NCBI GenBank assembly: GCA_903824505.1
Contig: CAIJXG010000081.1
Location: 40,044-104,043, forward strand
DNA length: 64,000 bases
Source: an uncultured Pseudomonadota bacterium
GTDB taxonomy: Bacteria; Pseudomonadota; Alphaproteobacteria; UBA9219
Reading direction: 5' to 3'
This document shows, one piece after another, positions 18,501-21,500 of the stretch; the first letter of the stretch is position 1; each line of letters opens with the position of its first letter. A program made the position numbers.

Positions 18501-21500
18501 CACCATATAGCGTTCATCCACTTCCGTGGCCATCCCACCCAGCGTTGTGTTGGGATCAAGCGCGATGGCATCGATTTTGTATTCCTTGCCCTTTTTGTCG
18601 GCTAGAGCAAATTTCAAAATCAGGTATTTTTCATAATTTGTTGTAACCTGAAAAGAGCCAATCGCCCGAAACCCTGACAAAGGGCCGGACACGATTTGAG
18701 CCATAATCGGACCCGGAACATCCGAATTGGCTTCGGTCAGAAGCTGTGCGTAACTGACCGTTCCAGCCGGAACCAGAATCTTGCCTTCGACATAATTTGT
18801 ATTCTGCGCTGTCAGAGCTGCCTGTGCCGCGCTTGATTGTTGTTGCGCCGTTCCTTGGGAATCTGCTGCCACCTTGCCTTCGTCGGCCTTCTGAAAGGAT
18901 ACATTCTTAATACTCTTCGAGCTCCATCCGTCCAGCAATTGCTGCATCTGGCGCTGCATCGCCTCGGCCAACGTGTTATCCATCTGCTCTTGTTGACGTT
19001 GTTGTTGCAGGGCTTGTTGTTGTTGAAGCTGTTGTTGACTCTGCTGCAAGGGTTGCTGTTGCAAACCTTGTTGCTGCTGTTTACGCATACTTTCCATTTC
19101 AGCCCGCAATTCGTTCAATTGCGTATCTTTGGCTGGCGCTTCTGTATCAGGGCTCTGACCGATCGGAGTCGGCAAGGCGCTCCCTCCATTCGCAATCGCC
19201 TGATCCGCGCGGTTCTTGTTTGCAAGTTCCGTTTGTTGCTTGACATAGGGCGAGGCCTCGCCACCTGGTGCTTCCTTGAAGCCGGGCGGTTTGGCGAGAT
19301 GCGTGAGATCTTGCGTGTCCTTTCCGCCACCTAAAAAGCTGGCGGCCGCAACGCCAACGGCGAAAACTCCAACCAGAAGAACCATGAATTTGAAGAACGG
19401 GCTCTTTTGCCACGCCTCACGAACATTGCCGATCATCCCGGGGGGAGGGGTATCGGTGGCCGCGCCGATTTCGGGTTCAATGAAATCATCATTTTCGTGT
19501 TCGTTATTTGTCATGGTCGTCATCCCGTAAGATCTGCGCGCGCACCATCGCCCCATTGTCGGACAGCAAAAGAACAGGCGCGTTGCCGATTTCGTAAACC
19601 GTCATGCCATCGGCCGAAGTTGCGCTGGCGTTCCAAGCCGGAGACAACAAGGCCAGCGGCGTCCGGACATAGACTTTTTCTCCAACTGACCACGCCTTGG
19701 TGCGCGTATCTAGACCGCCAATTTTAATTTTTGTGGCATCGGCTGGAGGAAGACCGGCGAGAATCTGGGTCAAAGTTTCATCGCCAGCTTGAAGTCGCGG
19801 ACGACTGATCAACGGAGGTTTCGCCCCGGGGCCGGGTTTAGCGATACGGGCGTCATAGCGCAAATCGACTTTAGGCCCTCCGGCGGAAAGTCGGAAAATC
19901 ACAGGAGTCGGCAAATCTTTTAAAATCACAGATAGATCGCCTGTACCTACCCGCGTTAAGGGCATAATACGCACCACATGGCTTCCCGCTTGGGTTGGAG
20001 AAACATCGAAGTTTCCCCCAACACCAACATCCATGATGGGCCAAGGCTCCCCTGTCGCATCCACCACGGCGATGGTTGTAACAAACCCCGCTGCAAGCTC
20101 CACTTGGGGCGGTTCGGCCCCCGGATCAAGAGGAAGCGTGACAATACGCGTTTGGCCCTTGGGGGTTCCTTCGGCGGGAATCTGCGCAGCCTCCTGAGTC
20201 CGCTCAAGTCTGCGCATAAAATCGCGGATTTGATCGGGGGTGAGGGGCATCAAGCCGTTTGACGCACGGTCAAAGGATTTCTGAATATGCTCTTGCTCGT
20301 GCTTGTGTTCGTCGGAGTCGGCTTGGGCCTGCGCTTGCAGCGCAGCTTGCTCCGCTTGCGCGGCAAGTTGCGCCGGATCCGACGAGAAGGCTGAAGGGGG
20401 CGGAGGCGTCGGAATCTGAATCCCAGACGGAGAAGGCGGCGCAGCCTGTGCTGTCGACGCGGCAGGCGGGACAGCTGAAGCTGCGGAGGCTGTCGGTGGA
20501 ATCTTCACGGGTGTCGGATAGGCGGCTTGAGTTGCCCCTGTGGCAGGAGGCGCGCCGGAAAGACTCGGCACCGCGATAGAATCGGCTGCGCGCGCGCTAG
20601 TCCCAAGCGAAAGGAGCGCCGAAAGCGAAGCCAGCGACGCTACAACGAAGGTCGCGGAACGCAAGGGAACCGGCTTAGACCGGTTGCAAAAGGATGTGTG
20701 CGACAAAAGTTCTTCCCCAAATCCGTTCAGCGACATTCATCCATCGCCCAAGATTCTGCAGACCTGCAGACCCGCCGTTGGCGAATCGTCAAGACCCCAG
20801 AAAAACAATATCACTATACCGTTACATTTCCTCTTTATTCAAGAGGCGGTTAACGGGGGAAGAAAAATTAAGAAGCATCGCCCTCTTAATGAATGCAACC
20901 AATTGTTTTTTCTTACATTTATTTCATTTTCTTGTGTTTCTTACCTTCCCCCTTCACACGACATATACTCGGGCACCGAAGGAACCCCTCACGTTTTGTC
21001 CGCGCAAAAGGCGCATCAGCTTCGCCCTCGCGCGTGTTTTGCACGGAATCGAATCCTTCCGCTTTCCAAGGAAACCGAGTATAGTTGCGAACGGCACCCC
21101 AAACAGGCAATGTTGAGAGATCACCAAGGGGTTCCAATGACTAACCAATCTCCTGTGCCAAGCTTTTCTCCTTTCCAAGGAAGGCTCACCTACGGGGTTG
21201 GCCTTGCGGGGATTCTACTGTTCTTCGCCGCCCTCAGCCTGAGTTTTTTTTGGGTGCCCGGACCTTTAACACAGAAAAAAACTATCGTGATTCCTCATGG
21301 GGTGCGCACGGTCGAGATAGGAGACAGGCTCGCTCAAGAAGGCGCCGTCTATAGTGCGCCGCTTTTTTTAGGAAGTGTGAAAATTCTGGGTGCCAAGAAT
21401 CTGAAGGCTGGAGAATATGAAATCCCCTCAAGGGCGACCCCCCTAGAAATTGTCCGCATGATCGGAGAAGGGCGCTCAGTCGTGCGGCTCTTCACGGTGC

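What the first reader, a model, noticed from the sequence alone, without database searches (positions are those of the whole stretch)
20964..21073. Miniature inverted-repeat element family (about 110 bp, termini TATACTCGG / CCGAGTATA) with three copies in the window
The copies are at 20964-21073 (plus orientation), 38283-38400 (minus orientation, 2 bp after the ccmC stop) and 59130-59237 (plus orientation, 11 bp before a GTG start). They are near-identical apart from an internal deletion of about 14 bp in copy 3. All are intergenic. They create spurious long ORFs in the six-frame track, for example the 5' extensions of mltG and the NMO gene. Such elements behave like MITE or ERIC-type elements and may supply promoters or terminators. 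One copy immediately follows ccmC, whose usual neighbours ccmD and ccmE lie 6 kb away.
Basis: seen in the sequence. Interest (0 to 1): 0.55.

Follow-up and report, generated by a model that had tools for sequence, protein, structure and literature searches.

The report
Small dispersed inverted-repeat element family
A roughly 120-bp non-coding repeat with 9-bp inverted ends and a conserved central hairpin occurs four times between genes in this stretch of an uncultured alphaproteobacterium; it looks like an ordinary lineage-specific miniature transposon relic (MITE-like), not a new kind of system.

Summary
The repeat is real. The copies are at 20964-21083 (+), 38282-38400 (-) and 59130-59237 (+). 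Similarity begins and ends exactly at TATACTCGG / CCGAGTATA, and the flanks are unrelated, so these are discrete units rather than pieces of a larger duplication. All four are intergenic once gene starts are corrected, and the long ORFs across them (mltG, NMO-like gene) are spurious 5' extensions. The elements match no Rfam family and carry no consensus promoter. The window encodes no transposase. Searches of E. coli genomes, plasmids, phages, viral contigs, JGI metagenomes, GTDB species representatives and 1.37 Mb of the nearest relatives found no copy elsewhere. The host lineage is isolated: the nearest CcmC is 76% identical. I therefore could not test genome-wide copy number, empty sites or a parent IS. 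The best reading is a MITE-like non-autonomous element (confidence about 0.65). One feature stands out. The central hairpin arms are perfectly conserved in the 66%-identical fourth copy (permutation P = 0.011), and on one strand the hairpin is followed by UUUU. That hints at a hairpin or terminator role for the transcript or DNA, but it is untested. This is an ordinary finding of low-to-moderate interest.

The parts
20964..21083 (+). Copy 1 (120 bp, full length). It lies in the divergent intergenic region between the DotH/IcmK-like gene (start 20736, minus strand) and mltG (ATG 21137). Its right end is 53 bp upstream of the mltG start.
38282..38400 (-). Copy 2 (119 bp, right-end TIR 8/9). It starts immediately after the ccmC stop codon (38279-38281) and ends 69 bp upstream of the true start of the NMO-like gene (GTG 38470).
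59130..59237 (+). Copy 3 (108 bp, with an 11-nt deletion of the left sub-terminal segment). It lies in the divergent intergenic region between glmS (minus strand) and a GH71 gene. Its right end is 11 bp upstream of GTG 59249, or 23 bp upstream of GTG 59261.
17800..17917 (-). Copy 4 (118 bp, 65-66% identical to the others, termini TATAGTCGA / TTGAGTGTG). It is intercistronic, 34 bp after the stop of the DotG-like gene and 25 bp before the ATG (17774) of the next minus-strand gene, which has a GGAG Shine-Dalgarno sequence. The element's forward strand is the sense strand of that operon.
21004..21042 (+). Central hairpin of copy 1 (GCAAAAGGCGC ... GCGTGTTTTGC). The equivalent segments are 38323-38360 (-), 59159-59196 (+) and 17840-17878 (-). 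The arms are invariant in all four copies.
20964..20972 (+). Left terminal inverted repeat TATACTCGG. Its partner is CCGAGTATA at 21075-21083. The outer TATA is itself a palindrome, so a TA or TATA target duplication cannot be told apart from the TIR.
38250..38265 (+). A 16-bp exact direct repeat, GAAAAATTGCCCTCAG, inside the ccmC 3' end. It recurs at 38404-38419, 3 bp beyond the far end of copy 2. It is not adjacent to the element on the ccmC side, where it sits 16 bp away, so it is not a simple target-site duplication. Unexplained.

Best explanation
The four copies belong to a lineage-specific, non-autonomous, MITE-like mobile repeat of about 120 bp. It has 9-bp terminal inverted repeats (TATACTCGG/CCGAGTATA) and an internal, strongly pairing central hairpin.

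Shown:
- The units are discrete, with sharp borders at the TIRs.
- They occur in both orientations, at four unrelated intergenic sites.
- No protein homologue is encoded.
- Nothing similar exists in any other collection searched.

Inferred:
- The copies were spread in trans by a transposase encoded elsewhere in the genome that recognises the TATACTCGG ends, probably inserting at TA or TATA sites.
- Copies persist only where they do not disrupt genes.
- Three of the four sit 11-53 bp upstream of a start codon with the same end facing the gene, and one is intercistronic. They are therefore probably co-transcribed and fold into a stable stem-loop in 5' leaders or intercistronic RNA, as described for Correia and ERIC elements. 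This could modulate mRNA processing, stability or read-through.
For: - Four full-length matches (nhmmer E 6e-37 to 2e-30), with the core 22-mer found 4 times against 0.00 expected.
- Flanks are unrelated at 3-12 of 30 positions, so this is not a segmental duplication.
- The TIR is 9/9, 8/9 and 9/9 in c1-c3.
- Size is 108-120 bp.
- All copies are intergenic once gene starts are corrected.
- RNA folds are more stable than shuffles on both strands (z -2.5 to -3.4), as expected for DNA-level palindromy.
- The central hairpin is -18 to -26 kcal/mol in all four copies.
- A six-frame peptide search of 5.8 billion protein clusters returned only the spurious NMO extension, so no coding function is apparent.
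- No Rfam match even at E <= 10.
- No copy was found in 1.34 Mb plus about 52 kb of further loci from relatives and pattern hits, nor in GTDB representatives, JGI metagenomes, viral contigs, plasmids, phages or E. coli. This narrow distribution is typical of MITE families.
- A short-read Logan contig stops inside copy 2, which is the usual assembly behaviour at a repeat.
- General MITE features (under 500 bp, TIRs of 4-30 bp, intergenic, stable stem-loop transcripts, DRs lost with age) are taken from PMC10969869.
Against: - No target-site duplication can be demonstrated beyond the palindromic TATA ends.
- No transposase, RAYT or IS with matching ends is present in the 64-kb window.
- No empty site or insertion polymorphism could be examined. 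Copy 2 is present in all 5 assemblies that carry the locus.
- The element is not AT-rich (53-55% GC, equal to the genome), unlike typical MITEs.
- The peptide search found no other element-derived ORF in any assembly, so the total copy number may be small.
- The uneven conservation of copy 4 suggests that some constraint beyond mobility acts on the central hairpin.
Confidence: 0.65

Rival explanations
1. The element is a host-maintained structural module. Its central hairpin, flanked by an A-tract and a T-tract, would act as an orientation-dependent intrinsic terminator, attenuator or mRNA-stabilising stem-loop. It may originally have been spread by transposition, like the SPRITE elements of S. 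pneumoniae, and is now kept for that function.
For: - The two arms of the central hairpin (12 and 10 nt) are the two longest perfect runs between copy 4 and the other copies, although overall identity is 62-66% (permutation P = 0.011; hypergeometric 7e-5 for all 18 stem positions).
- All four copies keep a -18 to -26 kcal/mol hairpin.
- On the reverse strand the GC-rich stem is followed directly by UUUU. That strand is the sense strand only for copy 2, which sits right after the ccmC stop at the end of ccmB-ccmC.
- In copy 4, three single changes in the terminal stem are G.U-compatible on the strand that is sense for the flanking operon, and one pair is compensated from GC to AU.
- SPRITE-type terminator-like MITEs are documented (PMC10969869).
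Against: - There are only four copies, and the hairpin pairs never vary, so there is no covariation evidence.
- Three wobble-compatible transitions have a chance probability of about 1/8.
- The U-tract is only 4 nt, and the scanner found no terminator in any copy.
- Copies 1, 3 and 4 lie just upstream of genes that need expression, where a terminator would be harmful.
- The hairpin was chosen after seeing the data.
Confidence: 0.15
2. The element is a REP/REPIN-type repeat mobilised by a RAYT (IS200/IS605-like Y1 transposase) rather than by a DDE transposase acting on TIRs.
For: The size (about 110-120 bp) and hairpin-forming, intergenic character resemble REP doublets (REPINs). The whole element weakly matches its own reverse complement (nhmmer E = 0.004-0.012).
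Against: - Self-complementarity over the whole length is only 54-60%, within the range of shuffles (mean 50%, maximum 60%).
- The element is therefore not an inverted doublet of one REP unit.
- From my own knowledge, REPs carry a conserved 5' GTAG-type tetranucleotide. None is visible in the sequence.
- No RAYT is encoded in the window.
- No match to E. coli REP/BIME.
Confidence: 0.07
3. The copies are a multi-copy small-RNA gene family or cis-regulatory leader RNA, not a mobile element.
For: The fold is stable. Three copies sit 11-53 bp upstream of start codons in the same relative orientation. MITE-derived sRNAs are known in Coxiella (PMC10969869).
Against: - No promoter or terminator consensus lies inside or at the borders.
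- Folding z-scores are equal on both strands.
- The orientation of copy 2 relative to its neighbouring genes is opposite.
- The downstream genes (mltG, GH71, a T4BSS gene, an NMO-like gene) are functionally unrelated.
- No Rfam match.
Confidence: 0.06
4. The copies are remnants of a larger duplicated segment, or result from gene conversion between paralogous intergenic regions.
For: Copy 2 is accompanied by a 16-bp duplicate of the ccmC 3' end on its far side.
Against: The flanks of all four copies are unrelated immediately outside TATA...TATA. The 16-mer occurs only at copy 2. The flanking genes are unrelated.
Confidence: 0.02

Closest known systems
Correia repeat-enclosed elements (CREE) of Neisseria
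   Same: Both are roughly 100-200 bp, non-coding and bounded by TIRs, with ends beginning TATA. Both are mostly intergenic and often sit immediately upstream of genes. Both are co-transcribed and hairpin-forming (PMC10969869). The TA target duplication of Correia elements is from my own knowledge.
   Different: There is no sequence similarity beyond the TATA ends. From memory, the Correia TIR is about 26 bp, whereas this one is 9 bp. No sigma-70-like promoter was found in these copies. IHF sites and RNase III processing were not tested. The host is an alphaproteobacterium, not Neisseria.
ERIC / IRU elements of enterobacteria
   Same: Both are imperfect palindromes of about 120-127 bp found in transcribed intergenic regions and in both orientations.
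   Different: There is no sequence match to any of 5,426 E. coli genomes. ERIC is defined by its consensus sequence, so this element is not a member.
[quoted passage not shown]
   Same: Both are small dispersed repeats whose core is a terminator-like stem-loop (PMC10969869). Here the central hairpin is flanked by an A-tract and a T-tract.
   Different: The U-tract here is only 4 nt and lies on one strand only. The terminator scan was negative. The sequence and host are unrelated.
QMITE1/QMITE2 of Coxiella burnetii and other type II MITEs
   Same: Both are lineage-restricted families with size variants, internal deletions and decayed copies that lose their TIRs and DRs. The host here also carries Dot/Icm-type genes and shows signs of gene decay.
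   Different: No parent IS is known and the copy number is unknown. This element is not AT-rich.
REPIN/REP-RAYT systems
   Same: Both are intergenic, hairpin-forming repeats of similar total length.
   Different: This element is not a doublet of inverted REP units. No RAYT is encoded in the window and no GTAG motif is present.

Membership tests
Prokaryotic MITE | Short length (<500 bp) with no transposase or other coding capacity | tested here: met
   The copies are 108-120 bp. The six-frame peptide search returned only a spurious gene extension. Feature definition from PMC10969869.
Prokaryotic MITE | Terminal inverted repeats (about 4-30 bp) | tested here: met
   TATACTCGG/CCGAGTATA is 9/9 in c1 and c3 and 8/9 in c2. 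In c4 it has degenerated to 5/9 at the DNA level, or 8/9 if G.U pairs are counted.
Prokaryotic MITE | Flanking direct repeats (target-site duplication) | tested here: inconclusive
   No direct repeat lies outside the TATA ends in c1, c3 or c4. The terminal TA/TATA is palindromic, so it could be either TSD or TIR. The 16-bp repeat at c2 is not adjacent to the element.
Prokaryotic MITE | Multiple dispersed copies in one genome, in both orientations, mainly intergenic | tested here: met
   Four copies lie in 64 kb, two per orientation, and all are intergenic. The genome-wide count could not be tested.
Prokaryotic MITE | Cognate autonomous IS or transposase with matching ends | not testable with these tools
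   No transposase is encoded in the window. The rest of the genome is not retrievable.
Prokaryotic MITE | Evidence of mobility (empty sites or insertion polymorphism) | not testable with these tools
   The nearest relatives have only 76% CcmC identity and different neighbouring genes. The five assemblies of this organism all carry copy 2.
Prokaryotic MITE | AT-rich composition (typical, not obligatory) | tested here: not met
   The element is 53-55% GC and the window is 54.6%.
ERIC (enterobacterial repetitive intergenic consensus) | Sequence similarity to the ERIC consensus | tested here: not met
   blastn (word size 11) against all complete E. coli genomes, which carry ERIC copies according to my own knowledge, found no match at E <= 0.01.
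REP/REPIN-RAYT | Inverted doublet of a short REP palindrome, with an associated RAYT gene | tested here: not met
   Identity to its own reverse complement is 54-60%, within the range of shuffles. No Y1 transposase is encoded in the window. A RAYT elsewhere in the genome could not be tested.
Any curated RNA family (Rfam 15) | Covariance-model match | tested here: not met
   No match at gathering thresholds over the whole window, and none at E <= 10 on the element.
Intrinsic (rho-independent) terminator | GC-rich stem-loop followed by a U-tract | tested here: inconclusive
   The consensus scan found none inside any copy. A manual reading of the folds shows the stem followed by UUUU on the reverse strand only.

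The most novel reading that the evidence does not exclude
The element is more than transposon debris. In this reading it is a mobile, orientation-dependent RNA or DNA hairpin module. Its central stem-loop, invariant even in a copy that has otherwise diverged by about 35%, would be kept by host-level selection as an intercistronic or 3'-end processing or termination signal, and the terminal stem would be maintained at the RNA level through G.U-compatible substitutions on the transcribed strand. That would make it an undescribed regulatory MITE family in a deep-branching, possibly host-associated alphaproteobacterial lineage.
Probability: 0.15. Interest if true: 0.45.

Novelty: new member of a known kind. 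Interest (0 to 1): 0.22.

Why it matters
- **Annotation.** The element inflates ORFs. The public gene call for the NMO-like protein carries 53 spurious N-terminal residues, 30 of them translated from the element, and the mltG ORF is over-extended in the same way.
- **Assembly.** The element breaks short-read contigs.
- **Biology.** It adds one more lineage-specific MITE-like family, in an uncultured alphaproteobacterium that has no close sequenced relative.
- **If the hairpin is functional.** It would then be another example of a mobile repeat that distributes a regulatory stem-loop, a phenomenon already documented for Correia, ERIC and SPRITE elements.

Nothing here challenges current understanding.

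Tried and rejected
1. **Strict 24-base pattern in GTDB species representatives.** It gave 0 hits, so the genome is not in that collection.
2. **Gapped hairpin pattern in JGI metagenomes.** It gave 5 hits. All are chance matches. blastn similarity is limited to 16 nt. The best weak hit (nhmmer E = 0.04) lies inside a 555-aa ORF.
3. **The same pattern in viral contigs.** None.
4. **Concatenated six-frame peptides of copies 1 and 2 against 5.8 billion protein clusters**, aimed at ORFs called across other copies. Only the NMO extension came back.
5. **Fetching the rest of the genome through encoded proteins.** The 68,957-bp and 106,268-bp ENA/NCBI contigs have no retrievable DNA. Only two short Logan contigs were obtained. 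One ends inside copy 2. The other extends 2.1 kb beyond the window and contains no copy.
6. **nhmmer with a 4-copy profile** over 1.34 Mb plus about 52 kb of further loci from relatives. No copies were found.
7. **Literature string search for the TIR.** It returned only primers. The run accession appears in no paper.
8. **Cluster look-up for organism names.** None were recorded.
9. **The idea that the element split ccmC from ccmD/E.** Rejected, because relatives also lack ccmD after ccmC.
10. **The idea that copy 2 truncated ccmC.** Rejected, because the present C-terminus RKIALRREES matches relatives in both length and motif.
11. **An outward promoter formed by the TATA end.** Rejected as unsupported. 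By my manual inspection the best -35 candidates match 3 of 6 positions, and the scans found nothing.
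Full report
**Observation**

Reading the three stated positions shows the repeat directly.

| Copy | Coordinates | Strand | Length | Source |
|---|---|---|---|---|
| c1 | 20964-21083 | + | 120 bp | |
| c2 | 38282-38400 | - | 119 bp | |
| c3 | 59130-59237 | + | 108 bp | |

- The finding's end coordinate for c1, 21073, is 10 bases short.
- A 22-nt core occurs four times, against 0.00 expected from shuffles.
- A profile built from the copies recovers exactly four full-length hits in the window (E = 6e-37 to 2e-30) and no further fragments.
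- Identity is 92% for c1-c2 and 83-84% to c3, which lacks 11 nt of the left sub-terminal segment. Identity to c4 is 65-66%.
- Immediately outside TATACTCGG...CCGAGTATA the flanks match at 3-12 of 30 positions, which is about chance level.

These are therefore discrete units, not parts of a longer duplication.

**Context**

The window comes from an alphaproteobacterium:
- It encodes a CcrM-type methyltransferase.
- GC content is 54.6%.
- Housekeeping genes are interspersed with Dot/Icm-like (DotH/IcmK, TrbI-domain DotG-like), curli and type II/IV-pilus-like genes.

All four copies are intergenic once gene starts are corrected.

| Copy | Position relative to neighbouring genes | Source |
|---|---|---|
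| c1 | Between the divergent DotH-like gene and mltG. Its right end is 53 bp upstream of ATG 21137, which follows an AAGGGG motif. | |
| c3 | Between divergent glmS and a GH71 gene. Its right end is 11 bp (GTG 59249) or 23 bp (GTG 59261, the public call) upstream of the start. | |
| c4 | Intercistronic on the minus strand, 34 bp after the DotG-like stop and 25 bp before a GGAG-preceded ATG at 17774. | |
| c2 | Begins at the base after the ccmC stop codon and ends 69 bp before GTG 38470 of the NMO-like gene. | |

- Homologues of the NMO-like protein align from their residues 2-3 to residues 53-56 of the 518-aa public gene call. The first 53 residues of that call are therefore spurious, and 30 of them are translated from the element.
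- The same over-extension holds for the 534-aa ORF across c1.
- CcmC is intact. Its C-terminus RKIALRREES has the same length and motif as 19 relatives.
- In the nearest relatives ccmC is followed by a GT25 gene or a convergent GT9 gene, never by ccmD. The ccmC/ccmDE separation is therefore a trait of the clade and has nothing to do with the element.

**Anatomy**

- The ends form a 9-bp inverted repeat: 9/9 in c1 and c3, 8/9 in c2.
- The outer four bases, TATA, are a palindrome. A TA or TATA target duplication therefore cannot be distinguished from the TIR.
- No other flanking direct repeat exists at c1, c3 or c4.
- The element as a whole is not a long palindrome. Identity to its own reverse complement is 54-60%, against 50% mean and 60% maximum in shuffles.
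- It does contain a strong central hairpin, GCAAAAGGCGC-loop-GCGTGTTTTGC, often extended by TCCG/CGGA. This hairpin folds at -18 to -26 kcal/mol in every copy and on both strands.
- Whole-element folds are 2.5-3.4 SD more stable than shuffles, equally on both strands. This points to DNA-level symmetry rather than a strand-specific RNA.
- GC content is 53-55%, so the element is not AT-rich.

**What it is not**

- No Rfam family matches, even at E <= 10.
- No consensus sigma-70 promoter or scan-type terminator lies within any copy.
- blastn finds no similarity in 5,426 E. coli genomes, which rules out ERIC, REP/BIME and the like by sequence. It also finds none in 72,556 plasmids or in phages.
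- No transposase or RAYT is encoded in the window.

**Distribution**

- A strict pattern present in all four copies has no match in one genome per GTDB species.
- A relaxed hairpin pattern found only chance or coding matches in JGI metagenomes, and none in viral contigs.
- The host has no close relative. The best CcmC among GTDB representatives is 62% identical and comes from Azospirillum, Stellaceae or other Rhodospirillales-like genomes. The best in a 15-billion-protein collection is 76% identical.
- None of 1.34 Mb plus about 52 kb of further loci from these relatives contains the element.
- The organism itself is represented by about five ENA/NCBI assemblies whose DNA could not be retrieved, plus fragmented Logan contigs, one of which terminates inside c2.
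- Genome-wide copy number, a parent IS and empty sites therefore remain untested.
- A search with the six-frame translations of c1 and c2 found only the NMO extension, which is present on 5 contigs. This shows that c2 is fixed in those assemblies. It also hints, weakly, that the copy number is not very large.

**Interpretation**

The combination of these features fits the standard description of a prokaryotic MITE (PMC10969869):
- small size
- short TIRs
- sharp borders
- dispersed intergenic copies in both orientations
- an internal deletion variant and a decayed copy
- no coding capacity
- stable stem-loop potential
- narrow taxonomic range

I place about 0.65 on that reading. The transposition mechanism, a trans-acting transposase recognising TATACTCGG and a TA/TATA target, is inferred and not shown.

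**One feature goes beyond plain debris**

- In c4 the two longest perfect runs against the other copies (12 and 10 nt) are exactly the two arms of the central hairpin. The permutation P is 0.011, and the hypergeometric P is 7e-5 for all 18 stem positions. The hairpin was chosen after seeing the data.
- c4's terminal stem is retained through three G.U-compatible substitutions and one GC-to-AU compensation, on the strand that is sense for the flanking operon.
- On the reverse strand the GC-rich stem is followed directly by UUUU. That strand is the sense strand only at c2, just after the ccmC stop.

This is compatible with two readings. Either there are two sub-families that both keep a sequence needed for mobility, or host-level selection maintains a hairpin, processing or termination function, as known for Correia, ERIC and SPRITE elements. 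With four copies and invariant pairs the data cannot decide. I give the functional-module reading about 0.15.

**Unexplained**

Copy 2 is bracketed by an exact 16-bp direct repeat, GAAAAATTGCCCTCAG, at 38250 and 38404. It occurs nowhere else in the window. On the ccmC side it is separated from the element by the last 16 bp of ccmC, so it is not a simple target duplication. The downstream copy is followed, in the ccmC-equivalent frame, by a stop codon at the same distance as in ccmC.

**Verdict**

This is a real, discrete, MITE-like repeat family that is new in sequence but ordinary in kind. The functional suggestions (promoter or terminator) and the ccm remark are unsupported or only weakly supported.

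Noticed in passing
window 38250-38265 and 38404-38419: An exact 16-bp direct repeat, GAAAAATTGCCCTCAG, brackets copy 2. The first copy lies inside the ccmC 3' end. The second is followed by a stop codon at the same distance and in the same frame as in ccmC. It is not a simple TSD, and its origin is unexplained.
   Followed up: partly
window 54806-54971 and 55769-55939: A 166-bp direct repeat, about 95% identical and spaced about 965 bp apart. It comprises the upstream region and the first ~22 codons ([22 protein letters not shown]) of the pyruvate dehydrogenase E2 gene. The upstream copy is followed by about 800 bp of low-GC (48%) sequence with no convincing ORF. This is probably the remnant of a decayed pdhB (E1-beta with an N-terminal lipoyl-like domain).
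   Followed up: partly
window 41931-43574: The carB ORF encodes only the N-terminal half of carbamoyl-phosphate synthase large subunit (residues 1-545 of a 1058-position model) and is followed directly by frr. The gene is either truncated or split, which suggests gene decay or an unusual split enzyme.
   Followed up: no
window 16599-20736 (minus strand): A three-gene Dot/Icm-type (type IVB secretion) cluster: DotH/IcmK-like, a TrbI-domain DotG-like gene, and a 391-401-aa protein with no Pfam family. It is embedded among housekeeping genes of an alphaproteobacterium. Curli genes (CsgG/CsgF/CsgA-like, 13477-16411) and T2SS/type IV pilus-like genes (641-3616, 9973-11325) lie nearby.
   Followed up: no
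whole window: The host lineage is isolated. The best CcmC identity is 62% among 185,579 GTDB species representatives and 76% in a 15-billion-protein collection. Gene order is scrambled (rplJ alone, mnmG next to a carB fragment, ccmDE directly after frr). Rfam finds no RNA gene in 64 kb at gathering thresholds. A dedicated tRNA scan was not run.
   Followed up: partly
window 38311-38469: The public gene call for the NMO-like protein (518 aa, on 5 contigs in ENA/NCBI) starts inside the repeat. Homologues indicate that the true start is GTG 38470, giving 465 aa. This is an annotation error propagated in the databases.
   Followed up: yes
window 6521-6608: A 40-nt-arm inverted repeat (73% complementary, 8-nt spacer) lies between ccrM and the L25 gene. 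It is probably a bidirectional terminator-like palindrome and is unrelated to the element family.
   Followed up: no
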